Source: Methylococcaceae bacterium UBA2780
Lineage (GTDB): Bacteria; Pseudomonadota; Gammaproteobacteria; Methylococcales; UBA2780
DNA: 64,000 nucleotides
Assembly (NCBI GenBank): GCA_002352345.1
Contig: DEIG01000009.1
Span: 7,573-71,572 of the forward strand
Direction: 5' to 3'
Shown here piece by piece: positions 2,937 to 51,210 of the stretch; within the stretch, counting starts at the first letter, position 1; every line of letters starts with the position of its first letter. The notes under the pieces were generated by a model. That model searched no databases and was not told the origin of the DNA. It saw only the letters and a program-made list of their open reading frames with translations. The translations under genes were made by a program, and so were the position numbers.

Positions 2937-3695
2937 TCAGTTGCAGCTTTTATTGCTCAAATTTATCTTAATTTCCGCATCTGACTGCATCTTTGTTATC
3001 TCAACCAGCTTTTTAAGCTGCTTATCTGTACGAAATCTAAGTAGAAACTGTTCTCGATTCACTTTATGGGGTTTTATCTCCAGCTCTACCCCTTTAGCTG
3101 CCCATTCTGCCCTAACGTCCTCTGCACGTTTCTGCTCCTTAAACATGCCGAGTGAGATTGCGCCTTTCCTGAGCCCTTTTCTAAAGAGCCAATAATCCTT
3201 AACCCCTTGGTTTTTTAATAGCTTAACGTTGGCCCTGGCCTCTTTCATATTTGGTGCAGCAGGGTACATCACCCAATAACCCGCATTTTCAGCCATTTTA
3301 TTAACTATAATTTCAGACTGCACCTCGCTTTCTTTCAAGCTATTTTGTAGGGCTTCTGCAATCGCCTTTTCTCTGATTAGGCTTGTCTGGTAACAGACAG
3401 GCTGCGTACTGAATGACGGCACAGCGTCTTCTTTTTGCTTAGAAACATCATTGGCTACAAGCTTCATTTCTTTAGGCTTCTCTACCACCTCCTTGATTTG
3501 TTTCGGGAGCTCCTTAGCTATGATTTTCTCAGCTTTTTCTACGGACTCTACTTTTAGCTCACTCACTAAAACGATCGATTCTAAGGATGGATCTACCACC
3601 AGCTGTGAATTTTGCCCCTGTTTTGGCTGAATATTAGTAGCCCACAAGTAGAAGACAACATTCCCCAACAATAAAAGGAAAAATAGTTTTTTCAT
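2937..3695 (-). CDS. SPOR domain-containing membrane protein
   Basis: N-terminal TM anchor, a charged linker and a C-terminal SPOR-like fold (GYWVMYPAAPNMKEARANVKLLKNQGVKDYWLF...ISLGMFKEQKRAEDV). It occupies the usual position after birA-coaX. Confidence 0.7.
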   Translation of the reverse strand: MKKLFFLLLLGNVVFYLWATNIQPKQGQNSQLVVDPSLESIVLVSELKVESVEKAEKIIAKELPKQIKEVVEKPKEMKLVANDVSKQKEDAVPSFSTQPVCYQTSLIREKAIAEALQNSLKESEVQSEIIVNKMAENAGYWVMYPAAPNMKEARANVKLLKNQGVKDYWLFRKGLRKGAISLGMFKEQKRAEDVRAEWAAKGVELEIKPHKVNREQFLLRFRTDKQLKKLVEITKMQSDAEIKINLSNKSCN

Positions 3696-10696: not shown

Positions 10697-12808
10697 CTAC
10701 CATTCGTAGTTTGCTGTTACATACATATTGCGGCCTGGCCCAGGCAACCGATTTGCTTGGTTGTTACCCATAACCGTTCCGCCTACATCAGCATTTTGAT
10801 TATTACGATTATAACCACCTAAATGATCTGAGTATTTTTTATCCAGGACATTCTCAATGCCAAAAGCGATCGTCACCTGACTAGCTGGCACATACTCACC
10901 TCGCAAGTTCAGCAACCCATAACCGCCTGTTTTCTCTTCAGAATTTTCGTCTGAAACTTTGTTCTGAGCAGCATAACCAACCACCTCTGCTTTCGCAGAC
11001 CAGGTTGCTTTTTCGTAAGTTAGTGCCACGCGACCATTTAAAGGTGCAATCCGGTATAGATCATCACTTGTATCGCGGCGCTTACCACGAATATAGCTCA
11101 GACTACCGTCCAACCTTACATTAGCAGCCAAAGAAAAACCCCAAGCAGCATCAATACCATAAAGTTTTGCATCGGTATTAGTAAATTGGAGCGTTCCTGC
11201 GTTTAGAACCAGTGCGTCAGCATTTGTGGCTGGAGTCCCTTGAATATAATCATTGACGTGATGATAGAAAACACGCGGTGTTAGATAAGCTCCATCTTGA
11301 TGCCAATTCACACCAAACTCGGCCTGATAAGAAACCTCAGGATCAAGTTCAACATCACCAATATAAACGCGACCATCTGCTAAACCAGCAGTTGATTCAA
11401 GTGGCAACCAAAGATAACGCTCCTGATAACTCGCTGAACGTGTTTTACGTGCCAAACCATATTCTAAGTCAACCGTATCAGAGAGCGCCTGTCTTAAAAC
11501 CAAAACTAAATCAACATTAGTATCTTCTTGGGTTCTATCACTCGCATTAAAAGCCGTTTGGAGCGCCAAATGCCTAGCCCCCATCATAGCCATCATTCCA
11601 CCCGCGCCACTTATGCTGCTAAAAACGTCATCAGCATCCATATCAACTCTTGTTACACGAGCACCAGCCTCTAAATTAAATGAAGGAGCAATATCCCCAG
11701 TCCATTCAGAAAAAACACCATAGCGATCACGCTCTACCCCACTGTAATTGGTGATATGAAACATCGCATTTGTTGGATCGTAGATATCTGCATCGTGATT
11801 TGCATCATCGCCATCAAAACCGATTACCAAATTTCCACCCAGTGCCGGCATATTAAAAGCCAATTTATAGCTACCGCCATCAACAGTTGTATAGGCAAAA
11901 CGGTGCATTGGGTTACCCATCATTAAGGGTGGTGTTCTATATAGTTCATTACTCATCAAATGACGCGAATCCTGATAAGAAATTTTTGCTTCTATGCCAT
12001 ATCCATCCGTTGTTTGGAATTTATAGTCACCGCTAACAATCCCACCACGCGCATAAACGATATCCATTGGTAGTGCTGGCGTGCCAGTATGGCCCGTATC
12101 ATTATTACTGTAATCAAAACCAAACTCATGATCGCCTGTGCGAAGTCCATAACCTATCGCATAAGAGTCACGATCATACTGTGTATTAAAATTGGTATCG
12201 TTGCCATCAAAGTTGTAACTATCACCCTTCTCGCCAGACCACGCTAAGTGGGCACGTTGCGTATCATTCGCAAGCGAGGTCAGTAAAGAATAACGTTTAC
12301 CATTATCAACATCGCTGTAACCGGCTGAAAGCTTACCGTGTGACTCAACTTCAGAGCTTGAGCCAAACCGACTACCCGATGACTTCATCACCATGCTACC
12401 GCCAATTGTTTCAAGGCCACTGCTAACAGGCGCAATCCCGCGATAAACTTCAAGCGCACCCGCCATTGCTGCAGGGATGTGACTAAGCGGTGGATCCATA
12501 CTGTTAGGCCCCGCTGCTTTCACATGCACGCCATCAACCATCACATTGACTCGATCCCCATACATGCCACGATATTGTGCAATACCGGTAAGCGGGCCAT
12601 TACGGTTTACATTTGCACCTGGGATGCGTTTTAAAAGCTCTGCCGCATCCACAGAGCTTTCTGTACCTGGATTAACGCCTGTCAGGCCAGGGCGAACAAT
12701 TTCACCCTCAACCAAAACTGGCGCTAGCTCAGTATGTTCAGCGAGTACCTGTAATGGTAGGCTGGCCGCTGTTGCGATAAACAACGAGCGTGCAATTTTA
12801 TTAGTCAT
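10697..12808 (-). CDS. TonB-dependent outer-membrane receptor (substrate unknown, possibly metal)
   Basis: Signal peptide. Plug domain (APVLVEGE...DAAELLKRIPGANV...YRGMYGDRVNVMVDG). Long beta-barrel ending ...NMYVTANYEW. No Cys, so it lacks the OprC-type CxxxM/HxM copper site. Confidence 0.9.
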   Translation of the reverse strand: MTNKIARSLFIATAASLPLQVLAEHTELAPVLVEGEIVRPGLTGVNPGTESSVDAAELLKRIPGANVNRNGPLTGIAQYRGMYGDRVNVMVDGVHVKAAGPNSMDPPLSHIPAAMAGALEVYRGIAPVSSGLETIGGSMVMKSSGSRFGSSSEVESHGKLSAGYSDVDNGKRYSLLTSLANDTQRAHLAWSGEKGDSYNFDGNDTNFNTQYDRDSYAIGYGLRTGDHEFGFDYSNNDTGHTGTPALPMDIVYARGGIVSGDYKFQTTDGYGIEAKISYQDSRHLMSNELYRTPPLMMGNPMHRFAYTTVDGGSYKLAFNMPALGGNLVIGFDGDDANHDADIYDPTNAMFHITNYSGVERDRYGVFSEWTGDIAPSFNLEAGARVTRVDMDADDVFSSISGAGGMMAMMGARHLALQTAFNASDRTQEDTNVDLVLVLRQALSDTVDLEYGLARKTRSASYQERYLWLPLESTAGLADGRVYIGDVELDPEVSYQAEFGVNWHQDGAYLTPRVFYHHVNDYIQGTPATNADALVLNAGTLQFTNTDAKLYGIDAAWGFSLAANVRLDGSLSYIRGKRRDTSDDLYRIAPLNGRVALTYEKATWSAKAEVVGYAAQNKVSDENSEEKTGGYGLLNLRGEYVPASQVTIAFGIENVLDKKYSDHLGGYNRNNQNADVGGTVMGNNQANRLPGPGRNMYVTANYEW

Positions 12809-12984
12809 CCTCTACTCCTTAGATTTTGAAATCATTAAAACAAATGTACTTTATGTACAACAAACGTTGCGATTATTGCAAAAACCACACCGGCTTATGC
12901 GGGAATTGATAAAACTGTGTCAAATAACACACTTGTAAACCGCTAATTGGATTACCCAGTCTAATCTGTTAGATTTACTCGGCT

Positions 12985-13680
12985 ATGCATCTTGATCAAT
13001 CATTCAGCGCCTCTTACCCCGCCGCACTCACTATGGGGCTACTCACTTCAGCCCACTGCATGGCAATGTGCGGCTCGATTATGGGCGCCTTAACACTCAG
13101 CCTCCCTGAAGAGATCAGGAACAATAAGTTACGCATACTACCCTATGTCGCCAGCTACAATCTCGGCCGAATCAGTAGCTACGCCTTAATTGGGTTTCTC
13201 GTCGGATTTGCTGGCCATATGATCACCTTTTCACTCGGTGAAGGGGGTCTTGGGCACCGTGCAGTGCAACTTTTTTCAGCTGCCTTTATGATCAGTGCAG
13301 GACTTTACATTGCAGGTTGGTTCCCCCGCTTTGCCTTTATTGAAAAAGGAGGCGGTCTACTTTGGAAAAGAATTGAGCCATGGGGCAGGCGCTTTATGCC
13401 AGTTAGCAGCATTAGACAGGCCTATCTATTCGGGGTTATTTGGGGATGGCTTCCTTGTGGATTAATCTATGCTGCACTTATTCTGGCAGCAACAACTGGA
13501 GACCCAGTTCGTAGTGGCATCACAATGCTGATGTTCGGGATCGGCACATTGCCAGCCGTTATGACAACAGGTATCATGTTGAATTATATGGTTAAACTTG
13601 CACGATTGCCGTGGTTTAGACCCATAACAGGGCTTGTAATTATCGCCACTGCACTTGTAACGATTTTTCCATATATGTAA
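12985..13680 (+). CDS. TauE/SafE - DsbD_2-like polytopic membrane protein with HCxxMCG motif
   Basis: About 6 TM segments and N-terminal TSAHCMAMCGSIMG. It resembles the COG2836-type proteins often found next to metal/cbb3 maturation genes; this is recalled, not searched. Confidence 0.6.
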   Translation: MHLDQSFSASYPAALTMGLLTSAHCMAMCGSIMGALTLSLPEEIRNNKLRILPYVASYNLGRISSYALIGFLVGFAGHMITFSLGEGGLGHRAVQLFSAAFMISAGLYIAGWFPRFAFIEKGGGLLWKRIEPWGRRFMPVSSIRQAYLFGVIWGWLPCGLIYAALILAATTGDPVRSGITMLMFGIGTLPAVMTTGIMLNYMVKLARLPWFRPITGLVIIATALVTIFPYM

Positions 13681-13723
13681 TAAAAATAATAAAAAGCAAA
13701 AAAATTAATTTTAGGGGTAGTTC

Positions 13724-14671
13724 ATGGAAGCATTTAAGACACTCATTGGGCAGTCGGCCCAAATGGAATCACTTGTTCGTAGCGCCCGAATGGTTGCGGG
13801 AACAACAGCCGCGGTCTTAATCAAAGGCGAAACAGGCACAGGAAAAGAGCTCCTTGCAAATGCTGTTCAGGCATCTAGCCCTCGCTCCTCTAAGCCTTAT
13901 CTAACTATTAACTGTGCGGCTTTGCCCGAAAGCATTGCAGAATCAGAGCTTTTTGGGCATCGCAAAGGCGCCTTCTCTGGCGCAGACAGCAACCAGCAGG
14001 GGCGATTAACTGCTGCTCATGGCGGCACCGTTTTTCTAGATGAAATTGATTCATTACCACTACCCATTCAGGCAAAACTTCTACGCTTTTTAGAGACAGG
14101 CGAGTGCCAAGCCGTCGGGGAAACCGTAAACCAAAAAGTTGACGTTAGAATTATTGCTGCGACCAACAGCGATCTACACGAAAAGGTGGCGAGCGGCCAG
14201 TTTAGAAAAGATCTCTATTTCCGCTTAAATGTAGTCCCTCTTGAACTGCCATCACTTAGCGAGCGCCGCAGTGATGTAAAACTTCTTACAACACACTTTT
14301 CTAAAATGATCGCTAAAGGTCATGATCGTATCCCGATCAGCTTCAGTAAAACGGCACTTCAATCGTTAGAGGCCTATCACTGGCCAGGTAATGTTAGAGA
14401 GCTTCGCAATCTTTGTGAGCGGCTTTCAATCTTAATGCCTGGGCGCCTGCTTGAGCCAGAAAATTTGCCTCTTGAACTAAAACGGAATCAGGTGCTTCAA
14501 GAAGGATCCGTTCACCTACCGGCCTCTGGAATAAAACTTGAAAATGTTGAGATCGATCTGATTCACCAAGCGCTTGAAAGAAGTAGCGGCAATAAGAGCA
14601 AATCAGCTCGTTTGCTTGGAATTAGCAGAGATACTCTTCTTTACAGGATGCGCAAGTACGAGATGCGCTAA
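13724..14671 (+). CDS. sigma54-dependent transcriptional activator lacking an N-terminal sensory/receiver domain (PspF-like architecture)
   Basis: AAA+ core begins at residue ~5 (LIGQS...GETGTGKELLANAV, ESELFGHRKGAFSGA, GGTVFLDEI, RIIAATN, WPGNVRELRN). C-terminal Fis-type HTH (NKSKSARLLGISRDTLLYRMRKY). Confidence 0.9.
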   Translation: MEAFKTLIGQSAQMESLVRSARMVAGTTAAVLIKGETGTGKELLANAVQASSPRSSKPYLTINCAALPESIAESELFGHRKGAFSGADSNQQGRLTAAHGGTVFLDEIDSLPLPIQAKLLRFLETGECQAVGETVNQKVDVRIIAATNSDLHEKVASGQFRKDLYFRLNVVPLELPSLSERRSDVKLLTTHFSKMIAKGHDRIPISFSKTALQSLEAYHWPGNVRELRNLCERLSILMPGRLLEPENLPLELKRNQVLQEGSVHLPASGIKLENVEIDLIHQALERSSGNKSKSARLLGISRDTLLYRMRKYEMR

Positions 14672-16322: not shown

Positions 16323-17108
16323 ATGACGCTAACGCCTTTTAAAATTTTCCGCATTTTATTGCTGCTTGCCATTTTGGCTGCCACCGCTTTTTACACGAAA
16401 GCGCAACGACTCTCTTCAACTGGCTGGTTAGAACCACTGGAAATTATTATTTACCCAATCAATGCAGATGGAAAAGAGTCAACCGCACGTTATATCAACC
16501 AGCTAAAAGAGGGCGATTTTCAATCAATAGACCGCTTTACTGCTAAACAAAGCAAAAAATACGATATCCTAACTAAAAAGCCAACCATTACGCGGCTTGG
16601 AAACACCGTCACCAAATTACCACCCAAAGCTCCAACACCAAATGACTCAGCCCTCTCAAATATACTTTGGAGCATGAAATTTCGCCTGTGGGCTTGGCAA
16701 GAGACACCCGATGATCTTTCCAACAAACATCGCGCTAGAATGTTTGTGCTTTACCATACGCTGACTGAAGGCCAACGGCTTGAGCACTCCTACGGATTAA
16801 ATAAAGGACTTCTTGGCCTTGTAAACGCATTTGCATCAAAAGAACAGACCGCGCAAAACAGCATCGTCATTACCCACGAGTTTTTCCATACCGTTGGCGC
16901 TACCGACAAATATGGCCCAAATGGAAACCCAGTTTTTCCTGAAGGGTACGCCTCTCTCGAGAATCAAAGGTACCCTCAACGGCGCGCAGAAATCATGGCT
17001 GGAAGAATACCAATCTCAGAAGGGCACTCACGCATGGCTGACAGCTTAAGACAATGTGTTGTCGGCAAGAAAACAGCACAAGAAATAAATTGGCTCCCTA
17101 ACATTTAA
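16323..17108 (+). CDS. membrane-anchored hypothetical protein with HExxH motif
   Basis: N-terminal TM segment (FKIFRILLLLAILAATAFY). VITHEFFHTVGATDKY suggests a zincin-like site. I recognise no family. Confidence 0.55.
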   Translation: MTLTPFKIFRILLLLAILAATAFYTKAQRLSSTGWLEPLEIIIYPINADGKESTARYINQLKEGDFQSIDRFTAKQSKKYDILTKKPTITRLGNTVTKLPPKAPTPNDSALSNILWSMKFRLWAWQETPDDLSNKHRARMFVLYHTLTEGQRLEHSYGLNKGLLGLVNAFASKEQTAQNSIVITHEFFHTVGATDKYGPNGNPVFPEGYASLENQRYPQRRAEIMAGRIPISEGHSRMADSLRQCVVGKKTAQEINWLPNI

Positions 17109-23725: not shown

Positions 23726-23788
23726 TGTTTCCCAAATAAAAAACCCTCTCTCACCAATGCAAAAGAGGGTTTTGCTATAAAAGTAGTG

Positions 23789-24604
23789 TTATTTTTTAGA
23801 TGGTTTCATCCGCTTATAGGAATCTGGGTATATTGATCCAGAAATTCCAGGGATGCTCGGCAAGTCACCACTTCCGCCATTAACTTTAAACTGCCCTTTC
23901 ATTCCCTTCTGCATATGCTGTGAAATGTCACAATGCACTAGCATTGTTTTTGCGTCACTCGCCACAATAAAGGTTCCAGTTCTTTCACCCGGTCCATTCA
24001 CCTCCAGATGAAACATCCCTTCAGGATATATATACTTTGGCAAGCCATGCATCATCCATTGATGCCGAACGCTGTCCTCATTGATAAATCTTACCGTCAC
24101 TCGACTACATGGCTTAACATTCCACTCGTTGCTATCAAAACCAAATATTGTCCCGTTATGGGTCGCATGTGCTGTACCTGCTTTTACGGTAAAACTAACA
24201 TCTTCTGATATTTTTTTGCAGTCACGAGGCAACGTGTCACTATTGGCATTCATTACCATGCCCTTTTCATCCATATCCATGCCGGCCATACCCATATCGG
24301 CACCACAGCTTCCCTCACCCATCTTCATTCCTGCGCCGCATTTTCCTTCAGCCATTTTGGCGGCCTCACCTTTTCCTCCTTCAGCTACCGGCGCTTTTGT
24401 CTTGCCCATACTTCCACATTTTCCTTCGCCGCATTTACCCTCTGGCATCTTGACTGTTTCAGCCTCTGCAAGCATATAGCCTGAAGCCAAATCATTTGTA
24501 GAAAACAGTTCCTCTGAGCATTGAGCTGCCATTGGCAACCCGACAGATGCTGTAGCAACCGCCGACCCTACCAATATACTTGATGATTTATTTAATCTTT
24601 TCAT
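23789..24604 (-). CDS. secreted cupredoxin-domain protein with N-terminal EGKCG-repeat / Met-rich low-complexity segment
   Basis: ATG at 24604 with a GAGGAA SD; the track start is a TTG at 24637. Signal peptide MKRLNKSSSILVGSAVATASVGLPMAAQ. Then PEGKCGEGKCGS...AEGKCGAG..GEGSCGADMGMAGMDMDEKGMVM. The C-terminal ~150 aa are beta-rich with type-1 Cu-like ligands (RHQWMMHG ... HCDISQHMQKGM, spacing C-x4-H-x4-M). Confidence 0.8.
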   Translation of the reverse strand: MKRLNKSSSILVGSAVATASVGLPMAAQCSEELFSTNDLASGYMLAEAETVKMPEGKCGEGKCGSMGKTKAPVAEGGKGEAAKMAEGKCGAGMKMGEGSCGADMGMAGMDMDEKGMVMNANSDTLPRDCKKISEDVSFTVKAGTAHATHNGTIFGFDSNEWNVKPCSRVTVRFINEDSVRHQWMMHGLPKYIYPEGMFHLEVNGPGERTGTFIVASDAKTMLVHCDISQHMQKGMKGQFKVNGGSGDLPSIPGISGSIYPDSYKRMKPSKK

Positions 24605-24639
24605 TACAATTTCCTCTTCAGTAAAAGTCGCTCCCAACC

Positions 24640-26247
24640 TTATTGGTTACGATCAACTATTCCGAATTTGTCTGCATTCTCTAAAGTCCCCCAAACAGGA
24701 TAAGTTCTGTCGTAGTACTCATTTGTGAAGAACTTGGTCAGATCCGTTCCATTTACTCTTGGCAACCCATTTTCGGTTAGGAAACTTTCGTAAACGATCA
24801 CGCTGACGTTACCACCTGGCATAGCGCTATCTGTTGTTATTCCAAATTCATTATGGTCATGAAACAACCAGACACCTTCGCCATAGTTATGCAAACCGTC
24901 ATTAGTCGTATTCAGCTCAAGATCAACCCGCTGCGCGCCCATTAGGGAATAAATATCACGCGTAATTTGTGCGCTAGGGTTATGCTCAATACCATCATAA
25001 TGAGTAATCGTCGCCTTATGCCCATGCGTATGCATTGCAAGCATATCTTCTCCACCATTAAACATTCGTAACTTAACCTTCTCATTTGGGGCCACAATAA
25101 CCAATGACTCGGGAATGGTATAAGGGAAGGATTTTCCGTTTAACGTGAAGTATTCAGGCTTTCTGTCCGCAAGTTTGTAATGCTGATTCATTGCCTCTGC
25201 AATCAATCGTGGATCGTTATACTGCTGTATGATGTTATGCAATTCTTTGTCGGACCCAATATATTGCAGGTCATACTCACGATCATAAACCTCTTTAATG
25301 GCGACAGATGAATGTCTTACATGGCCATCGCCAACATTGAATGTTTGCACCCAATTATTAGGTCTGTTCTCTTCAATGATGAACATCCCAATTAACCCCA
25401 TTAGAATATGCGTGCCAGTTTGTACATGACAATGGTAAACCATTGTTCCTGTCTGCCTAGGTTGAAAACGGTAGGTGAAACTCTCTCCAGGTTGAACCAT
25501 CGCCCCTTCAGGTGATGGAAAGGTTTGAGGGACACCATCATTCCCACTTCCATCTTCCTGCATATATGGGTGATCAACACCATGCAAATGGATTGTATGT
25601 GGAAAATAGTGTGTGTTTTCTAATACAAGCTCAATCTTATCTCCCTGTTCTACTCTGATCGCAGGAGATGGCATACGTATATATGGATTCGCGTAAGTTG
25701 TCTCATTATTCGCTACAACCATACCTCGAGTTTTCGGTGCAAACACCCAAAATCCTGGTTGCACACCTGGTGCAATATCGTAAGCTGGGAATGGCGTATC
25801 TAAATCGGGGTCTCGTCCATTTATCTCTGCAACTTCTAGACGAATTCTTATAACATCAGGGTCACCATCACCATCAAGATCGTCACCTTTTGTGACGGTA
25901 TCAGGTGAAAGTTGCGTTTCCATTAAAGTCGCCATTGAGACATTATTCGTCCCCTTAACGAAGGTAGCGATATCAAAGGGGTTATCTGGACTGCACAGTT
26001 TTGAGGCAGAAATTTCAACACCTTCAATAACCTGCTTTTCACGCCAGCTAGCATCAATTGTTTCAGGACAGACCTCAGCCATCCTGACTTTGCCCATTTC
26101 TGCTTTTTGTGTCGGAGGTGGCTCTTTGTATGCAGGAATAGATATAGTTTTCCCGCTGTCTGTTTTTAGAGAGCTACCATTCTCACAGGCAGTTAACAGC
26201 CCCATAGAAACTACGACAGCTGTTGCTAACACATTTCTTTTTATCAT
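24640..26247 (-). CDS. multicopper oxidase family lipoprotein (two-domain-type motif arrangement)
   Basis: Lipobox LLTAC. Cu motifs in order: HTIHLHG, YHCHVQTGTHILMGLIGM, AMHTHGH, WLFHDH. Acidic DDLDGDGDPD loop in a ~190-aa N-terminal extension. Confidence 0.85.
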   Translation of the reverse strand: MIKRNVLATAVVVSMGLLTACENGSSLKTDSGKTISIPAYKEPPPTQKAEMGKVRMAEVCPETIDASWREKQVIEGVEISASKLCSPDNPFDIATFVKGTNNVSMATLMETQLSPDTVTKGDDLDGDGDPDVIRIRLEVAEINGRDPDLDTPFPAYDIAPGVQPGFWVFAPKTRGMVVANNETTYANPYIRMPSPAIRVEQGDKIELVLENTHYFPHTIHLHGVDHPYMQEDGSGNDGVPQTFPSPEGAMVQPGESFTYRFQPRQTGTMVYHCHVQTGTHILMGLIGMFIIEENRPNNWVQTFNVGDGHVRHSSVAIKEVYDREYDLQYIGSDKELHNIIQQYNDPRLIAEAMNQHYKLADRKPEYFTLNGKSFPYTIPESLVIVAPNEKVKLRMFNGGEDMLAMHTHGHKATITHYDGIEHNPSAQITRDIYSLMGAQRVDLELNTTNDGLHNYGEGVWLFHDHNEFGITTDSAMPGGNVSVIVYESFLTENGLPRVNGTDLTKFFTNEYYDRTYPVWGTLENADKFGIVDRNQ

Positions 26248-26431: not shown

Positions 26432-26962
26432 TTAGGCCATTTTCTTGTATGTTATTGCTCCGCCTACAGCCACCGCAACGGCAAGAAGAATCCAAACTGG
26501 AAAGCCTCCACCCATGCCGACAGCAAATGGGAAGCGTGAAACAATTTCCTCATCACCATCTTTGATAGTAACGATACCTACAAACTTACCTTCTTTAGGA
26601 AAGCGATGCTCAAAACTAATGTTACCAGTTGGATATACTTTGAATGGCATATGTAAAATCGTATTCGCATCCGTCGCTTCAGCTTCTGCCTCACCTTCAA
26701 TAACCCTAATTTCTGTTGGGAAATTTTTCATTTTTCGATCCATTGCATCCATTGCGACAATGGTTAGACCTGTTGAAGGGATATCTTCACAAAACTCTTT
26801 TGTTGCTGAACTGTCTGGTTGGTAACCAGTGAAATGCATTTTATATGCACCAATTGTTAGGATGCATAAATCCTTATCTGCTGATAAACCTCCATGAGCA
26901 CTTGCTGTCGTCGAAAAAAAGAAGAGTCCGAACAATAATGCAGCAATCGTTTTATTAAGCAT
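26432..26962 (-). CDS. PmoD/AmoD-like periplasmic protein with C-terminal TM anchor
   Basis: Immediately downstream of pmoB. Signal peptide ending ASA|HGG, about 125-aa soluble domain with C33-x8-M42-H43, Gly-rich linker and one C-terminal TM helix (FPVWILLAVAVAVGGAI). Assigned by position and architecture, not by a search. Confidence 0.55.
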   Translation of the reverse strand: MLNKTIAALLFGLFFFSTTASAHGGLSADKDLCILTIGAYKMHFTGYQPDSSATKEFCEDIPSTGLTIVAMDAMDRKMKNFPTEIRVIEGEAEAEATDANTILHMPFKVYPTGNISFEHRFPKEGKFVGIVTIKDGDEEIVSRFPFAVGMGGGFPVWILLAVAVAVGGAITYKKMA

Positions 26963-27008: not shown

Positions 27009-27048
27009 TAAAAAAACCCCGCTCGATTAATATATAAATCGAGCGGGG
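27009..27048 (-). terminator. rho-independent terminator after pmoB
   Basis: 12-bp stem ccccgctcgatt/aatcgagcgggg (27017-27028 / 27037-27048), followed on the minus strand by T6. Lies 21 nt after the pmoB stop. Confidence 0.85.
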
Positions 27049-27068
27049 TTCTGTCTAGCTAAATATTC

Positions 27069-28307
27069 TTACTGGAATGTAGGAATAATTGGGCCAGAAA
27101 TTTCTTCCATATAGGTTTTGCCATCAGCGCCTTGGAAGTATAGAACTCCACCAAAAGCACTATCAGGATCACCAATAAGACTTGAAAGTCTTTCTGTTTC
27201 CCATAAAGCGTCACTCGCTTCAATTTCTAAACGCGCAGTTTCACCCGGATAGATAGTTGGTTCACCTTGAACATTCAAACCATCTTTAGCCCAAAGTTCA
27301 GCACTGTCTGTTTTAGCTAGCGTTGGAATCAAGCTATTAGTAAAACGAACGTTAGCTGAGTTGAACTCCGCAAGTTTGATTGGTGTTGCAGAACCGTTAG
27401 TTATATCCAATGTCATTGTCATTGAACGACCTGGAATTCTGTAGTTAGCTTTAAGGATCTTAGCTTTTACTGCAGAGTTCTGAGGTGTTACAGGCAGTGC
27501 TTCAACGGGAATGATCGCACTTTGCAGTGGAATCTGAACAGGATACTGCTCTTTTGCTGAATTAGAGCTCATTGTAACCAGAACGATCGTACCAATAAGA
27601 AGTGCAATACCAACTTTCTTATCTGTTGACGTGATCAATGCATCTTCTTCACCATTCTGCACCATTAAGAAGCGTGGAATGAACAGAGGACGACGCACCC
27701 AATATAGAACCCAGAAAAGTGCTGGAATAGCCCAAATAATGTGCCATTTAACAACATTCGCAAAGCCATATGTATTTAGGTCGATTGCTTCACCAGTCAA
27801 AGTCGTCACAGGGTATGTAAAGTCTTCGTAAACACCTTCGATTAGTGTCCACTGCCCTGGACCAACTAGGCCACCAGCACTCTGCACATTAAGCATAGGA
27901 TGGATATGCGCCTCACCAGGCTTACGTCCACGAACAATAACTTTATATTCGTAGGTTTTTCCTAGTTCAAGCTTAAATGATTTAGCAGCTGGAACGCCGT
28001 TCAACCAAGTTTCAACTTTTGCTACAGCAGGACCTGGCTCAGCAACGTGAAGATAGGCAACATCAGGCTTCATGATAACTTCTGGCCATGCTTCCGCCAA
28101 AAGGAATTTACCTGTAATAGTCATCTCTTCATTAACAGCAACTCTGTTTGTTGAAAAGTTAGTGTCATACCAGTGAACGGTACGCATACGGAGAAAAGGC
28201 TCCTGCGAACGTTCCCCATGAGCACCCGCTTGAGGTGCATACAATGCTGTCAATGAAGTGACAATAACCGCCACTCCACCTAGCAATGAGATAATTTTAT
28301 TTTTCAT
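27069..28307 (-). CDS. pmoB: copper membrane monooxygenase subunit B (PmoB/AmoB family)
   Basis: Signal peptide then mature N-terminus HGERSQEPFLRMRTVHWYD. HIHPMLNV (HxH Cu-B ligands). Two central TM helices and a C-terminal cupredoxin domain. 412 aa. Confidence 0.93.
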   Translation of the reverse strand: MKNKIISLLGGVAVIVTSLTALYAPQAGAHGERSQEPFLRMRTVHWYDTNFSTNRVAVNEEMTITGKFLLAEAWPEVIMKPDVAYLHVAEPGPAVAKVETWLNGVPAAKSFKLELGKTYEYKVIVRGRKPGEAHIHPMLNVQSAGGLVGPGQWTLIEGVYEDFTYPVTTLTGEAIDLNTYGFANVVKWHIIWAIPALFWVLYWVRRPLFIPRFLMVQNGEEDALITSTDKKVGIALLIGTIVLVTMSSNSAKEQYPVQIPLQSAIIPVEALPVTPQNSAVKAKILKANYRIPGRSMTMTLDITNGSATPIKLAEFNSANVRFTNSLIPTLAKTDSAELWAKDGLNVQGEPTIYPGETARLEIEASDALWETERLSSLIGDPDSAFGGVLYFQGADGKTYMEEISGPIIPTFQ

Positions 28308-28355
28308 CTAATTAATTCCTCGGTAATCGTTATTAATTTACCTTGGTGCACCTTG

Positions 28356-29144
28356 TTAGGCGCGAACCTTAGCTGCTTTATCGAAGATGCTCTTCATCCA
28401 GCGCATTTTTGCGCCGACAGCACCTAGTTTCCACCATGCTGTATACATAATCATGCAGATAAATGCAGCGAAGAAAGAGGCGATCAATGCAGATTCACCA
28501 CCGAATGTACGTAGTGTTCCACGTTCAATCATTCTTAGGTATTCAGGTGTCGCTGTTCTAACGAATGCGTAGCCAACCATATCAGCAACTGACATCAGCT
28601 GACCCATGTGCTCAACTGGAACATGGTAAGGAGCAAGAATAACGATATTTTGCGCATAGAAAAGTAGCGCAAACAGTGGAGCACCAACAATAGCAGTTGC
28701 GACCCAATTCTTCGTCAACATAAGGACAGCATCAAGAACTAAAGCGCTCGCAATAAGCATCGCAGGCCAAGTTAGCGTAGCTGGAAAACCAGACCATATT
28801 GTAAAACCCCAGTAACGGTTCATCCACTCACCAAATAGCAGTGCAACGATACATAATGTCGCGCCAAGTGGAACCCTAAAGTATTCCCATAGTACATATT
28901 GAATAGCAGCAGGGAACGTAATCGCTACGATTGGTGTAATTGTGATCCAGAAACGTCTATCTTTCCAATCCACCCAAAAATCCCAGTCACCCGCGAGCAA
29001 CATAAAGTGAATGTGAAATGCGCCAGTAATGGCTAAAAACAATATAGGCACAAGCAGCAAGTCAAACTTTCTTGACATACCCGCCATAACAGGTGATAAA
29101 TCACCCGCTGATTTCGCGCCTACAGATTGAGCTGTTGCACTCAT
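28356..29144 (-). CDS. pmoA: copper membrane monooxygenase subunit A (PmoA/AmoA family)
   Basis: HIHFMLLAGDWDFWVDWKDRRFWITITPIV, GEWMNRYW, TPEYLRMIERGTLRTFG. AGGAG SD. 262 aa, about 15 aa longer than the canonical proteins I recall. Confidence 0.93.
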   Translation of the reverse strand: MSATAQSVGAKSAGDLSPVMAGMSRKFDLLLVPILFLAITGAFHIHFMLLAGDWDFWVDWKDRRFWITITPIVAITFPAAIQYVLWEYFRVPLGATLCIVALLFGEWMNRYWGFTIWSGFPATLTWPAMLIASALVLDAVLMLTKNWVATAIVGAPLFALLFYAQNIVILAPYHVPVEHMGQLMSVADMVGYAFVRTATPEYLRMIERGTLRTFGGESALIASFFAAFICMIMYTAWWKLGAVGAKMRWMKSIFDKAAKVRA

Positions 29145-29218
29145 AACTGCCTCCTAACAAAGAATTTATATTTAAATTTAATCCCATCAACCAAAGTCAA
29201 TTCGGTCGAGGGGAATTG

Positions 29219-29248
29219 AGTATACGACCATTCCATCACGTGTTGCAA
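29219..29248 (-). promoter_or_regulatory. candidate internal sigma70 promoter for pmoA-pmoB
   Basis: Minus strand reads TTGCAA (29248-29243), 18 nt, TATACT (29224-29219). Lies about 75 nt upstream of the pmoA ATG and downstream of the pmoC terminator. Confidence 0.4.
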
Positions 29249-29451
29249 GGGTTTCGGAGCAATAAACCATATAATTAAACCGCTTTTTTACCCCTTAAAC
29301 TATTGACTTTTATTTTTTCTGCATTCCAATCAATTTCTGCTCTTCACAGAACTTCTTTTCATTACTGAAATCCCATTGCCATTCCAGATGAATTTTCTTG
29401 ATCCAGTAATTTACTTCCACACCTCTATTATTCTTTTGCTTTAAATTTTAC

Positions 29452-29485
29452 AAAAAAAATGCCGGAGGTTTTCACCTCCGGCATT
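29452..29485 (-). terminator. strong rho-independent terminator between pmoC and pmoA
   Basis: 12-bp stem aatgccggaggt/acctccggcatt (29458-29469 / 29474-29485), 4-nt loop, then T8 on the minus strand. Lies 46 nt after the pmoC stop. Confidence 0.85.
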
Positions 29486-29530
29486 TTGAGCCATATTTAA
29501 CGCTTAGAACTTACACTCTAATGCTAAATA

Positions 29531-30361
29531 TTATTTACCATACATATCACAGTATTCCATTGACTCATCTCTTAGTGGCATAACTTCTCCACCTTTTCCG
29601 TCGCTAGACATTTTCATCAATACAGCCATACGAATAGCAACTTGAAGAGCCAAACCAGCCAACATAAGTACTGTCCACCCTAGAACAACGAAGCCCCAGT
29701 GTAGTGGCGCAGTGAAGTACTCTTCCATTAGCCAGAAAGCATGTCCCCATTCGTTGTAGCCAACGTTTGGAAGAATCATGAAAGGACCAACAACTGCGAA
29801 CAGGTATGGGATTGAGATTTTAGATGCGAAATCAGGAAGTCTTGTTCTCGCATAGATAAAACCAGCAACACCAATCATGATGTAAACAGGCATTGTGCCG
29901 TAGAACAATACAATGTGGCTTGGTGTAAAGCTTGTATCACGTACCACTACCTGATGCCATGAAGCATCCTGCTCAGCGAAAAAGCTCGCTGCCCAGTAAA
30001 CTGCCATCGCATAAACAAAGATCCAACCGATCAAAGTGAAATAACGTTTCAACTCTTCATCAGCTGAAATATTGAAAACGTTTAAGTCACGCGTCTTCCA
30101 CATGTAAGACCAAAGCAATACACAACCCGCTGCTTCAAGTGTTACTTCCCAGTAGAAAAGTGACATCCAGTACTCGTCAAAAATTGGATCAGTTGAATCA
30201 AGACCCGCATACCATGCAGCCCACTGCTGATAAACACGAAGAGACACCACATAGATCAAATAGACAGCTGTCGCCATCCACGCGTATTTTAAGTTGCCGT
30301 AGACATTAACCGAGGGCTTCGCTCCCGATTTAGCTGCGACATCATGTGTAGTTGTAGCCAT
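29531..30361 (-). CDS. pmoC: copper membrane monooxygenase subunit C (PmoC/AmoC family)
   Basis: FAEQDASWHQVVVRDTSFTPSHIV (D-x3-H-x12-H site) and NEWGHAFWLMEEYFTAPLHW (N-x3-H-x13-H site). About 6 TM segments. AGGAG SD. Confidence 0.93.
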   Translation of the reverse strand: MATTTHDVAAKSGAKPSVNVYGNLKYAWMATAVYLIYVVSLRVYQQWAAWYAGLDSTDPIFDEYWMSLFYWEVTLEAAGCVLLWSYMWKTRDLNVFNISADEELKRYFTLIGWIFVYAMAVYWAASFFAEQDASWHQVVVRDTSFTPSHIVLFYGTMPVYIMIGVAGFIYARTRLPDFASKISIPYLFAVVGPFMILPNVGYNEWGHAFWLMEEYFTAPLHWGFVVLGWTVLMLAGLALQVAIRMAVLMKMSSDGKGGEVMPLRDESMEYCDMYGK

Positions 30362-35687: not shown

Positions 35688-36320
35688 TCAGCGAAGTTTT
35701 CTCTGCAGCCCCTCTTCCAGCACCCGATCCCTATACTCCTGGCTCGGCTTGTCAAGGAGAACACCACTAAAGCTTCCCACACCACCTCTTTGAGACTTTT
35801 CATTCCTAACAACTAAACCGGCCATCTCAAAAACATCACCACCAGGAAACTCAACCTTTAATGAGACTTTTTTATTAACACCAAATCTTTTGCCGCAAAC
35901 CAGTCCTATCCCATTCACACTAAAATCCAGCAAGCAGGCTCTTTTTAGCTCTGACCACTCAAAAAAACCAACTGGTTTAACAAAAACTCTAACCTCACTT
36001 GCTGTATAGCGTGCTGCGGCTCTGTTTTCACTACTCTCAACGGATTGTATTGGTGGCTTAACACGATCCCAGCCGTGATGAATCATCGTGTCATGCCCAC
36101 TTCCCTCAACAAGCTCCAGCGCCTCGCACCCAACAAGGTCAATTTCAATAAACCCTTCAGGCGAAATCTGCTCAGCCTTCATATGCTTTCGGTCTAGGCG
36201 GTCAAACAGGGGTTTCTTCTCGTCCATATGCGAGGATTCATCTGCCGACACAAGATAAGGCGAGAACTTTACTCCAGCACCTCTATTCTTTTTTAGCTGA
36301 ACAATTTTATCTTTTTTCAC
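35688..36320 (-). CDS. PilZ domain protein with unknown N-terminal domain
   Basis: C-terminal RAAARY (RxxxR), then about 30 aa, then DFSVNGIG (DxSxxG). I do not recognise the N-terminal ~110 aa. Confidence 0.65.
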   Translation of the reverse strand: MKKDKIVQLKKNRGAGVKFSPYLVSADESSHMDEKKPLFDRLDRKHMKAEQISPEGFIEIDLVGCEALELVEGSGHDTMIHHGWDRVKPPIQSVESSENRAAARYTASEVRVFVKPVGFFEWSELKRACLLDFSVNGIGLVCGKRFGVNKKVSLKVEFPGGDVFEMAGLVVRNEKSQRGGVGSFSGVLLDKPSQEYRDRVLEEGLQRKLR

Positions 36321-50718: not shown

Positions 50719-51210
50719 ATGAACACTACCACTTATATGGTTATGGTTGGCTTGCCCGTAGGGTTGGTTCTCATGATTTTGTATATGATCTACAGCAATA
50801 GAGGCGCCGGCGCCGTTCGAAAGTCACTTGCCAGCATCTTGCCAATCTATGAACCTGACTTACAAGCTGGCGAATACAACCGCGCCGCGCGCACAATCCT
50901 TAGCAATACAGACCATATTAGTGATGACGTAGAAAAGGCTATTTACTACGTCTTGGCTGCTCGAGCATTGGCTGCCGCAGAGGATTATCGCCAAGCTTTA
51001 TTTAGCATCGAAATTGCAATGCCCGGCTTCCCAAAGCACCTTCAAGGTAATTATAAAAAGTTTCAGGAATACAAAGATGAGTGCATAGCTTTAGGTGATC
51101 AATGCAGAGAAAAGCTAGATACAGACACCATAAAAGAGACCACTTCTGCAGCTGACAGCCTCAAAAACGGCACTTCAAAAGAGATTGCTGCTTGGTTTGA
51201 TGTTGCCTAA
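50719..51210 (+). CDS. hypothetical membrane-anchored protein
   Basis: GAGGAG SD, one N-terminal TM segment and a helical body. I recognise no family. Confidence 0.55.
   Translation: MNTTTYMVMVGLPVGLVLMILYMIYSNRGAGAVRKSLASILPIYEPDLQAGEYNRAARTILSNTDHISDDVEKAIYYVLAARALAAAEDYRQALFSIEIAMPGFPKHLQGNYKKFQEYKDECIALGDQCREKLDTDTIKETTSAADSLKNGTSKEIAAWFDVA

What the first reader, a model, noticed from the sequence alone, without database searches (positions are those of the whole stretch)
24251..24442. EGKCG-repeat / Met-rich segment fused to a cupredoxin: an HvfA-like metallophore motif without its modifying enzymes
Residues ~65-129 of the secreted protein read MPEGKCGEGKCGSMGKTKAPVAEGGKGEAAKMAEGKCGAGMKMGEGSCGADMGMAGMDMDEKGMVM. 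That is three exact EGKCG units, one EGSCG unit and a Met-rich run. As I recall, EGKCG repeats are the hallmark of HvfA-family precursors. In those, a DUF692 (MbnB-like) iron enzyme with a DUF2063 partner converts the Cys residues to Cu-binding oxazolone/thioamide groups, in a way related to methanobactin and bufferin chemistry. Here the repeats are not in a short stand-alone peptide. They are fused to a ~150-aa cupredoxin domain with azurin-like type-1 ligand spacing (H…C-x4-H-x4-M). No DUF692 or DUF2063 gene lies anywhere in the 64 kb. One possibility is that the motif binds Cu(I) unmodified, as a tethered Cu-capture arm feeding the cupredoxin or pMMO. The other is that it is modified in trans by enzymes encoded elsewhere. 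Either would be new for a CuMMO locus.
Basis: partly seen in the sequence, partly recalled or inferred. Interest (0 to 1): 0.78.

Follow-up and report, generated by a model that had tools for sequence, protein, structure and literature searches.

The report
HvfA-type copper arm fused to cupredoxin
A secreted copper protein encoded next to a copper monooxygenase operon has swapped its normal front end for a complete copy of a copper-binding peptide precursor (HvfA/EGKCG type), with no modifying enzyme nearby, which probably gives it a tethered copper-catching arm.

Summary
Window 24251-24442 (minus strand) encodes E55-M118 of a 271-aa exported protein (23789-24604). It carries 3 EGKCG units, 1 EGSCG unit and a Met-rich run, followed by a cupredoxin.

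The resemblance to HvfA is real homology of the whole ~105-residue N-terminal module: signal peptide, leader motif and repeats. With the repeats removed, profile comparison still gives 99.2% probability. A fully syntenic relative has the same gene with a plain signal peptide, and homology starts exactly at MDMDEKGMVMN. The module is therefore a swapped cassette.

The cupredoxin core belongs to a compact family. It is almost always encoded just downstream of a two-domain multicopper oxidase (MCO), and here it follows a CuMMO operon and pmoD. In other members the N-terminal slot holds His-rich arms, His/Met arms, a CusF domain, CopCD or the MCO itself.

No MNIO (DUF692), HvfC (DUF2063) or DoxX gene lies in the 64 kb. 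None of 160 related loci has an MNIO or HvfC gene; one has a DoxX-like ORF.

Best reading: a tethered periplasmic copper-capture arm. I could not test whether its cysteines are converted to thiooxazoles by enzymes encoded elsewhere (about 40-45% likely). It is a new variant of a known kind.

The parts
23789..24604 (-). Gene for the 271-aa exported fusion protein: an HvfA-type module followed by a cupredoxin. The ATG start at 24604 has a GAGGAA RBS. An alternative TTG start lies at 24637.
24524..24604 (-). Sec-type signal peptide, residues ~1-27 (MKRLNKSSSILVGSAVATASVGLPMAA). It is homologous to the signal peptides of stand-alone HvfA-like precursors. It is unrelated to the signal peptide of the syntenic orthologue.
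   Evidence: Cleavage site judged by eye only.
24455..24517 (-). Leader motif, residues 30-50 (SEELFSTNDLASGYMLAEAET). It corresponds to the NPFxxxxLxxGYxLA motif of HvfA/Buf_EGKCG precursors.
   Evidence: hhalign of leaders without repeats gives 99.2%, E 3e-19 over 46 columns. The motif is present in 15/24 Cys-repeat arms and 0/96 other arms.
24413..24442 (-). Tandem EGKCG-EGKCG, residues 55-64. This is the minimal substrate form for FonBC and the core of the NF050137 match.
   Evidence: bioRxiv 10.1101/2025.11.18.689057 section 10
24335..24349 (-). Third EGKCG unit, residues 86-90.
24302..24316 (-). EGSCG unit, residues 97-101.
24242..24298 (-). Met-rich junction, residues 103-121 (MGMAGMDMDEKGMVMNANS). 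The family-wide motif MxMDxxGMVMNxN forms the first strands of the fold. Homology with the arm-less orthologue begins here.
23825..24277 (-). Cupredoxin domain, residues 110-260. T1 ligands are H181 (24062-24064), C225 (23930-23932), H230 (23915-23917) and M235 (23900-23902). A second conserved site is M184/H186/H224. C129 and C166 are invariant and probably form a disulfide.
23740..23773 (-). Terminator-like hairpin (15 pairs plus a T run) directly after the gene.
24640..26247 (-). Upstream partner, 35 nt gap: a 535-aa two-domain multicopper oxidase with lipobox LLTAC. The best solved relatives are 2ZWN and the Nitrosomonas europaea enzyme 3G5W.
   Evidence: It is adjacent in 74/80 and 63/80 related loci. 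It is fused to the cupredoxin in P0416, P0434 and P0439.
26432..26962 (-). PmoD/AmoD-type protein, 176 aa, with a Cx8MH motif and a C-terminal TM helix.
   Evidence: Sequence; motif classes from PMC6189053.
27069..30361 (-). CuMMO operon: pmoC 29531-30361, pmoA 28356-29144, pmoB 27069-28307. It is of the emoA/ET-SHO type. Hairpins lie at 29456-29487 and 27013-27052.

Best explanation
**What it is.** The gene encodes a periplasmic protein built by module replacement. The ordinary signal peptide and short His/Met arm of a conserved cupredoxin were replaced by a complete HvfA/Buf_EGKCG ('captophorin'-type) precursor. That module has its own signal peptide, a leader motif, four EGxCG units and a Met-rich tail. 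It is about 80 residues after signal-peptide cleavage and is predicted to be disordered.

**Proposed function.** The arm acts as a tethered copper-capture arm. It is one of several interchangeable copper-binding modules found at this position in the family: His-rich arms, His/Met arms, a CusF domain and CopC-CopD.

**Proposed mechanism (inferred).**
1. The arm binds Cu(I) through its four Cys residues and many Met residues.
2. It holds the copper or hands it to the conserved M184/H186/H224 site on the cupredoxin. In MCOs these positions face the trinuclear cluster.
3. The adjacent type-1 copper exchanges electrons with the two-domain MCO lipoprotein encoded 35 nt upstream.
4. Periplasmic copper is thereby captured, redox-processed and buffered for the neighbouring copper monooxygenase and PmoD.

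**Modification state.** For this organism I lean slightly (about 55:45) to the Cys residues acting unmodified, as thiolates. No modifying enzyme is linked in any locus, and the slot functions with unmodified arms elsewhere.

**Shown versus inferred.** Shown: homology of the module, the cassette boundary, synteny, fusions, the fold, conserved ligands, and absence of MNIO and HvfC genes nearby. Inferred: copper binding, hand-off, electron transfer and physiological role.
For: **The arm is an HvfA-type module**
- It matches stand-alone precursors over 85-100% of its length.
- The leader alone gives hhalign 99.2%.
- NF050137 scores above its cut-off.

**It is a swapped cassette**
- L012 is syntenic over 20 kb, yet homology starts at MDMDEKGMVMN.

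**Structure**
- The arm is predicted disordered (pLDDT below 55). The domain has pLDDT above 90.
- Foldseek finds cupredoxins and MCO domains.

**The slot is variable**
- Among the top 120 homologues: 24 multi-Cys arms, 30 single-Cys, 20 His-rich and 46 short/Met.
- CusF, CopCD and MCO fusions also occur.

**The MCO is the constant partner**
- An MCO lies immediately upstream in 74/80 genome loci and 63/80 metagenome loci.

**Conserved sites**
- T1 ligands are invariant. M184, H186 and H224 are each conserved in 56/57 cluster representatives.

**Link to CuMMO**
- The order CuMMO-PmoD-MCO-fusion recurs in L011 and L013. In L002-L004 the MCO-fusion pair lies within about 5 kb of a CuMMO operon.
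- Multi-Cys arms lie near a CuMMO operon in 6/7 loci, against 10/60 for other arms (Fisher p = 5e-4).

**No modifying enzymes nearby**
- There is no MNIO, HvfC or DoxX in the window.
- There is no MNIO or HvfC in 160 related loci. The positive control is good.

**Published analogue**
- The disordered His-rich and His/Met regions of CopI bind copper (PMC13308877).
Against: - No copper-binding data exist for any member of this family.
- The closest orthologue works without any arm, so the arm is accessory.
- Strict conservation of E-G-x-C-G goes beyond the Cys itself (E 97%, G 92%, G/A 93%), and the HvfA leader motif is also conserved. A simple thiolate arm does not obviously need either. Both fit recognition by an MNIO/PME1 pair.
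- The proposed hand-off to the M184/H186/H224 site and electron transfer to the MCO rest on homology with MCO domains. I could not inspect model coordinates or predict a complex.
- The link to CuMMO comes from small numbers that are not corrected for phylogeny.
Confidence: 0.6

Rival explanations
1. **Modified in trans.** The arm is still a substrate of an MNIO (HvfB-type) and PME1 (HvfC-type) pair encoded elsewhere in the genome. Before Sec export, its Cys residues are converted to copper-binding 5-thiooxazoles. At least the tandem EGKCGEGKCG would be modified. The protein would then be a cupredoxin with a covalently tethered captophorin or chalkophore.
For: - Whole-module homology includes the leader motif.
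- The tandem EGKCGEGKCG is nearly invariant in 20 diverged fusions.
- The constraints by position match bona fide precursors and the tolerance of FonBC: position 3 is free and position 5 is G/A (bioRxiv 10.1101/2025.11.18.689057 sections 10-11).
- HvfBC still modifies HvfA that lacks its signal peptide and N-terminal region (PMC11252979).
- MNIO-PME1 clusters occur in about half of Pseudomonadota reference genomes (same preprint, section 5). Methylococcus capsulatus has a DUF2063 gene, MCA3109 (PMC2954202).
- Precursors away from an MNIO gene exist: the P0135 locus has none within 6 kb, and stand-alone precursor genes are described in PMC12452194.
- Buf_EGKCG fusions to EF-hand domains are known (PMC12452194).
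Against: - No MNIO or HvfC lies within the window (64 kb). None lies within the flanks of about 13 multi-Cys fusion loci or of 160 family loci. By contrast, most true Buf_EGKCG precursors sit beside these genes (PMC12452194).
- Some fusion lineages have C-A or C-S units or a single unit. FonBC does not process such units.
- The slot works with unmodifiable arms in most family members.
- Presence of the enzymes in this genome is unknown.
Confidence: 0.4
2. **Decaying relic.** The arm is a neutral or decaying remnant of a chance fusion with an hvfA gene. It only supplies a working signal peptide, and the EGKCG units have no function of their own.
For: - The arm is absent in the nearest syntenic orthologue.
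- It is scattered over at least 6 clades of an NJ tree.
- Some lineages show degenerate units.
Against: - The units are conserved at the protein level with synonymous codon differences.
- They are conserved across fusions of 50-88% identity while the spacers diverge.
- E-G-x-C-G is kept even in single-copy arms of many Methylococcales.
- The other occupants of the slot are recognised copper-binding modules.
Confidence: 0.05
3. **Copper buffer only.** The arm is a copper-sequestering buffer for detoxification, like bufferins and oxazolin. It has no hand-off to the cupredoxin, the MCO or the CuMMO. Tethering only keeps it in the periplasm.
For: - Bufferins and Buf_EGKCG peptides are assigned to protection against copper excess (PMC12452194). 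The EGKCG products are proposed to bind copper stochastically and to aggregate (bioRxiv 10.1101/2025.11.18.689057, section 9).
- CopI is described as a modular copper buffer (PMC13308877).
Against: - The arm sits immediately before the conserved Met motif and next to a second conserved metal site.
- Multi-Cys arms are enriched at CuMMO-linked loci.
- CopCD and CusF fusions point to trafficking.
- None of these points excludes buffering.
Confidence: 0.25

Closest known systems
HvfA (oxazolin), FonA (fontiphorin), NgoA (gonophorin): EGKCG-repeat 'captophorin' / Buf_EGKCG precursors modified by MNIO (DUF692) and PME1 (DUF2063)
   Same: - A Sec signal peptide.
- The leader motif NPFxxxxLxxGYxLA.
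- Tandem EGKCGEGKCG units with the same conservation by position.
- Homology over the whole ~105-aa module.
   Different: - It is not a ~95-130-aa stand-alone peptide. It is fused to a 150-aa cupredoxin.
- It has only 4 Cys units and one perfect tandem.
- No MNIO, PME1 or DoxX gene is nearby.
- It sits in a CuMMO/PmoD/MCO gene cluster.
- The HvfA equivalog HMM scores 31.9 bits against a cut-off of 95.
- Modification is untested.
Buf_EGKCG proteins fused to EF-hand domains, and bufferin-MerC fusions (PMC12452194)
   Same: A short EGKCG or bufferin module, predicted to be unstructured, is fused to a folded metal-binding domain.
   Different: - The partner domain here is a redox cupredoxin.
- Those fusions were collected from MNIO gene clusters. 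This one has no linked MNIO.
CopI of Rubrivivax gelatinosus: a periplasmic cupredoxin-like protein with disordered N-terminal His-rich and internal His/Met-rich copper-binding regions (PMC13308877)
   Same: - A cupredoxin with intrinsically disordered copper-capturing segments.
- A periplasmic copper-handling role.
   Different: - No sequence-family match was found. Pfam and NCBIfam give only Cu-oxidase_2.
- The arm chemistry here is Cys/Met of RiPP-precursor origin.
- The partner here is a two-domain MCO.
- This family has an extra M/H/H site.
Two-domain (type C) multicopper oxidases, e.g. Nitrosomonas europaea 3G5W and metagenomic 2ZWN, and the Met-rich substrate region of CueO
   Same: - The upstream gene is of this class.
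- The cupredoxin resembles a single MCO domain with MCO-type T1 spacing.
- As I recall, Met-rich segments feed Cu(I) to CueO.
   Different: The target itself lacks a trinuclear cluster. Only 2 of the 4 ligand positions are His. It is a separate polypeptide in most genomes and is fused to the MCO in a few.
PmoD/AmoD and CopCD accessory copper proteins of CuMMO operons (PMC6189053)
   Same: - Same genomic neighbourhood.
- A cupredoxin-type periplasmic copper protein associated with CuMMO organisms.
- CopCD is fused to this cupredoxin core in some genomes.
   Different: It is a different family. PmoD is the 176-aa gene two genes upstream. I found no published description of this cupredoxin family.

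Membership tests
HvfA / Buf_EGKCG (captophorin) precursor | N-terminal Sec signal peptide | tested here: inconclusive
   The N-terminus is hydrophobic and aligns with the signal peptides of stand-alone precursors. No signal-peptide predictor was available.
HvfA / Buf_EGKCG (captophorin) precursor | Conserved leader motif (NPFxxxxLxxGYxLA) between the signal peptide and the repeats | tested here: met
   The window has ELFSTNDLASGYMLAEAE. Leader-only hhalign gives 99.2%, E 3e-19 over 46 columns. The control aligns over only 15 columns.
HvfA / Buf_EGKCG (captophorin) precursor | Repeated EGKCG units, typically tandem (A)EGKCGEGKCG | tested here: met
   One perfect tandem plus EGKCG and EGSCG. NF050137 scores 20.3 bits against a cut-off of 19.5.
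HvfA / Buf_EGKCG (captophorin) precursor | Score above the NCBIfam HvfA equivalog cut-off (NF050188, 95 bits) | tested here: not met
   31.9 bits, residues 40-102.
HvfA / Buf_EGKCG (captophorin) precursor | Gene clustered with an MNIO (PF05114) and a PME1/HvfC (PF09836), often with DoxX | tested here: not met
   None in 64 kb. No MNIO or HvfC in 160 related loci. The positive control is good. Elsewhere in the genome was not testable.
HvfA / Buf_EGKCG (captophorin) precursor | Cys residues converted to 5-thiooxazole (earlier assigned as oxazolone/thioamide), and the product binds copper | not testable with these tools
   This needs mass spectrometry, UV spectroscopy and alkylation of native or co-expressed protein.
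Type-1 (blue) copper cupredoxin | Greek-key beta-sandwich fold | tested here: met
   AlphaFold2 pLDDT is above 90 for residues 110-260. Foldseek finds auracyanin, NirK, two-domain laccases and CueO at E ~1e-6.
Type-1 (blue) copper cupredoxin | His, Cys, His (and Met) ligand set | tested here: met
   H181, C225 and H230 are invariant in 57/57 cluster representatives. Position 235 is Met in 43 and Leu in 14.
Multicopper oxidase | Trinuclear cluster ligands (HxH and HCH motifs) in at least two cupredoxin domains | tested here: not met
   The protein has a single domain. The motifs read H181-x2-M184-x-H186 and H224-C225-D226. The Pfam Cu-oxidase_2 hit reflects domain ancestry only.
CuMMO-associated MCO-cupredoxin pair (unnamed family defined here) | Conserved MxMDxxGMVMNxN motif and cupredoxin core, encoded directly downstream of a two-domain MCO | tested here: met
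   An MCO lies upstream in 74/80 and 63/80 loci. In the window the gap is 35 nt.

The most novel reading that the evidence does not exclude
The arm is converted by a distally encoded MNIO/PME1 pair into a string of 5-thiooxazole copper chelators. These stay covalently tethered to a redox-active cupredoxin. The result would be a protein-bound chalkophore that captures copper and passes it, through the M184/H186/H224 site and the partner MCO, to a copper monooxygenase. Gammaproteobacterial alkane and methane oxidisers generally lack methanobactin (my recollection, not tested here). It would be RiPP chemistry installed on a folded enzyme partner.
Probability: 0.3. Interest if true: 0.85.

Novelty: new variant of a known kind. 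Interest (0 to 1): 0.62.

Why it matters
**For RiPP and MNIO research**
- EGKCG peptides were only recently shown to be enzyme-made copper binders, and their physiological role is still open.
- Here a complete precursor module is welded onto a cupredoxin in the accessory-gene block of a copper monooxygenase. This gives a concrete physiological context: copper capture for a CuMMO/MCO system.
- It also sets a clean test case. Either the motif binds copper without modification, or MNIO enzymes act on distant, protein-sized substrates.

**For CuMMO research**
- The analysis defines a compact and, as far as I could find, unstudied MCO-cupredoxin pair. It is present in cultured model methanotrophs such as Methylotuvimicrobium buryatense 5G and Methylobacter marinus A45.
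- The N-terminal slot of this cupredoxin collects copper-handling modules.
- How gammaproteobacterial methane and alkane oxidisers obtain and manage copper is a long-standing open question. This pair makes that question experimentally approachable.

Tried and rejected
**Whole-genome test for MNIO/HvfC could not be done**
- The exact look-up of P0001 found no record.
- The look-up of the neighbouring MCO returned only a 7.5-kb Logan contig.
- Walking the source contig from the window edge failed.
It returned only close relatives of the query; the named hits are Gallionellaceae, Sulfurirhabdus and Sulfurimicrobium.

**Other leads that gave little**
- Sequence and fold searches of the PDB gave only generic cupredoxin and MCO-domain matches, with no specific solved relative.
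- I could not inspect model coordinates or predict an MCO-cupredoxin complex.

**Ideas rejected**
- Split third domain of the neighbouring MCO. The MCO has all four of its own HxH/HCH-type motifs and matches complete two-domain MCOs.
- Lipoprotein anchoring through Cys29. The residue before the Cys is Gln, which does not fit a lipobox.
- Recent slippage repeat. The codons differ between units.
- Azurin-like site. The spacing and the Pfam hit are those of an MCO domain.
Full report
**1.

The minus-strand ORF 23789..24637 contains the quoted sequence. The probable start is the ATG at 24604, preceded by GAGGAA. This gives a 271-aa product. Coordinates 24251-24442 encode E55-M118.

There are three EGKCG units, one EGSCG unit and a Met-rich run. 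Chance does not explain this:
- Only 3 of 200,000 shuffles of the protein give two or more EGxCG units. The real sequence has four.
- The units differ at synonymous sites, so they are not a fresh slippage product.
- The units are kept in orthologues of 50-88% identity while the spacers between them diverge.

NCBIfam's domain model KCGExKCG_twice passes its cut-off (20.3 vs 19.5 bits). The HvfA equivalog model does not (31.9 vs 95 bits).

The C-terminal part matches Pfam Cu-oxidase_2 at residues 137-242. AlphaFold2 models residues 110-260 as a confident cupredoxin (pLDDT above 90). Residues 1-105 have pLDDT below 55 and are predicted disordered. Foldseek returns auracyanin, NirK, two-domain laccase and CueO domains.

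**2. The arm is a whole HvfA-type precursor, not just a motif**

A search with residues 1-105 returned hundreds of ~100-aa stand-alone proteins that align over 85-100% of the query. They share one architecture: a signal peptide, a conserved (E/D)NPFxxxxLxxGYxLA leader, and EGKCGEGKCG repeats.

One of them (P0153) sits in a canonical cluster beside an MNIO (PF05114) and an HvfC_N/HvfC_C protein. Another (P0135) has an ECF sigma factor, an anti-sigma factor and DoxX, but no MNIO within 6 kb.

To separate homology from repeat composition, I cut every sequence before its first Cys unit and compared profiles:
- Fusion leaders against stand-alone leaders: 99.2% probability, E 3e-19, 46 columns.
- N-termini of family members without repeats against stand-alone leaders: only 15 columns, which are signal-peptide columns.

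The leader motif occurs in 15 of 24 Cys-repeat arms and in 0 of 96 other arms.

**3. The arm is a swapped cassette**

Locus L012 (GCA_053986525.1) is syntenic with the window over 20 kb. The shared order runs from IMPDH and guaA through the CuMMO genes, PmoD, the MCO, the cupredoxin, VTT, SlyX and YkuD. Its MCO is in the same 90% cluster as the window's.

Its cupredoxin is only 192 aa and has an unrelated, plain signal peptide. DNA and protein homology with the window begin exactly at MDMDEKGMVMN. In the window's lineage, therefore, the entire N-terminal module has the form of an HvfA-like precursor, including its own signal peptide.

**4. What the core protein is**

The cupredoxin core belongs to a compact family:
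- 2425 hits at 90% clustering.
- About 72 clusters at 50% identity with E ≤ 1e-30.

Hosts include Methylomarinum, Methylobacter marinus A45, Methylotuvimicrobium buryatense 5G, Methylovulum, Nitrosoglobus, Binatia and Methylomirabilota.

The members share a motif MxMDxxGMVMNxN that forms the first strands of the fold. Across 57 cluster representatives:
- C129, C166, H181, C225 and H230 are invariant.
- Position 235 is Met or Leu.
- M184, H186 and H224 are each conserved in 56 of 57.

Aligned to MCO and NirK domains, M184, H186, H224 and D226 occupy the positions that bind the trinuclear or T2 copper. The protein therefore probably carries a second metal site next to the T1 site. This is an inference from MCO structure.

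The gene directly upstream is a 535-aa lipoprotein (lipobox LLTAC). Its best solved relatives are the two-domain MCOs 2ZWN and Nitrosomonas europaea 3G5W. An MCO is immediately upstream in 74/80 genome loci and 63/80 metagenome loci. In P0416, P0434 and P0439 the two are one polypeptide.

In the window, terminator-like hairpins bracket pmoD-MCO-cupredoxin as a unit downstream of the CuMMO genes. The 176-aa gene has the Cx8MH motif of the PmoD/AmoD class (PMC6189053). The PmoA clusters with 'pmoA2' of the ethane-grown Methylococcaceae strain ET-SHO. It is thus of the emoA type, a putative ethane monooxygenase (PMC4678205).

**5. The N-terminal slot collects copper modules**

Among the 120 best homologues the arm falls into these classes:
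- Tandem or multi-Cys EGxCG: 24.
- A single EGxCG: 30.
- His-rich: 20.
- Short Met/His: 46.

Other representatives carry different modules in front of the same core:
- A CusF domain (P0393, PF11604, E 2e-20).
- CopC-CopD (P0389, P0399, P0403).

Multi-Cys arms are scattered over at least six clades of an NJ tree. They are enriched at loci that lie next to a CuMMO operon: 6/7 against 10/60, Fisher p = 5e-4. These numbers are small and not corrected for phylogeny. The gene order CuMMO-PmoD-MCO-fusion recurs at 54% identity in L011. In L002-L004 (50% identity) the MCO-fusion pair lies about 5 kb from a CuMMO operon.

This pattern is what one expects of an exchangeable copper-capture arm. It parallels the disordered copper-binding regions of CopI (PMC13308877).

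**6. Are the cysteines modified?**

The window has no MNIO, HvfC or DoxX gene:
- phmmer of all three against 647 six-frame ORFs gave E above 0.1 throughout.
- Pfam scans of about 65 ORFs found none.

None of 160 related loci has an MNIO or HvfC; one has a DoxX-like ORF. These include about 13 multi-Cys loci. The queries are sensitive. They find 3BWW at 4e-82, MbnB at 7e-8 and 3DEE at 2e-11.

Evidence for modification in trans:
- The leader and the E-G-x-C-G pattern are conserved as in true precursors: E 97%, G 92%, K 60%, G 83% plus A 10%. Stand-alone precursors show 88, 95, 92 and 98%.
- FonBC needs two tandem repeats, tolerates changes at position 3, and requires G or A at position 5 (preprint, section 10).
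- HvfBC modifies HvfA that lacks its signal peptide and N-terminal region (PMC11252979).
- MNIO-PME1 clusters occur in about half of Pseudomonadota reference genomes (preprint, section 5).

Evidence against:
- There is no linkage to modifying enzymes anywhere.
- Some lineages have C-A, C-S or single units.
- Most family members, and the nearest orthologue, function without such an arm.

I could not search whole genomes. I put modification at about 40-45%.

**7. Comparison with known systems, and novelty**

The module is a member-like relative of HvfA/FonA/NgoA precursors. It fails two family criteria, the equivalog score and the gene cluster, and a third (the modification itself) is untestable here.

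Fusions of EGKCG or bufferin modules to EF-hand or MerC domains are published (PMC12452194). No held paper combines 'cupredoxin' with 'MNIO', and the MNIO landscape paper does not mention cupredoxin, plastocyanin or azurin.

I therefore class this as a new variant of a known kind. It sits in an apparently undescribed MCO-cupredoxin family of CuMMO organisms.

Noticed in passing
window 27069-30361 (minus strand): The PmoA (28356-29144) falls in the same 90% cluster as 'pmoA2' of the ethane-grown Methylococcaceae strain ET-SHO. This is the emoA-type putative ethane monooxygenase. The 'pMMO' of this locus may therefore oxidise short-chain alkanes rather than methane.
   Followed up: partly
window 23927-24055 (codons for M184, H186, H224, D226): The cupredoxin family has a second site as conserved as the T1 ligands. 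M184, H186 and H224 are each kept in 56/57 cluster representatives. They occupy the positions that bind the trinuclear or T2 copper in MCOs and NirK. This suggests an extra, exposed copper site.
   Followed up: partly
proteins P0416, P0434, P0439; P0389, P0399, P0403; P0393 (one search hits): There are Rosetta-stone fusions of the same cupredoxin core. Partners are a two-domain MCO, CopC-CopD, or a CusF domain.
   Followed up: yes
window 29456-29487, 27013-27052, 23740-23773 (minus strand): Strong terminator-like hairpins lie between pmoC and pmoA, after pmoB, and after the target gene. pmoD-MCO-cupredoxin looks like a separate or read-through unit.
   Followed up: no
window 24640-26247 (minus strand): The two-domain MCO has a lipobox (LLTAC) and an N-terminal extension of about 130 aa that matches no Pfam family.
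   Followed up: no
L005 4893-7166: A stand-alone EGKCG precursor in a Porticoccaceae MAG sits with an ECF sigma factor, an anti-sigma factor and DoxX. No MNIO or HvfC lies within 6 kb. This is an example of a precursor away from its presumed enzymes.
   Followed up: no
L009 8001-9167 (Candidatus Nitrosoglobus): The ammonia-oxidiser orthologue has a very long His/Met-rich arm (HQGMDM repeats). It lies 2 kb upstream of amoCAB, and no MCO gene was called upstream of it in the locus.
   Followed up: no
window 24518-24520 (Cys29): A Cys follows directly after the predicted signal peptide (AAQ-C-SEE). It is conserved in P0003 and L013 but not in P0002. Its role is unknown. HvfA of H. influenzae has an N-terminal disulfide pair.
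   Followed up: no
window 10697-14671: A TonB-dependent receptor, a DsbD_2 membrane protein and a sigma-54 activator lie together about 10 kb from the locus. A possible link to metal uptake was not examined.
   Followed up: no
window 2937-3695, 16323-17108, 35688-36320, 50719-51210: These are sizeable ORFs with no Pfam match. ORF 16323-17108 appears to have a counterpart in the syntenic locus L012: an unannotated 261-aa gene at the matching position.
   Followed up: no
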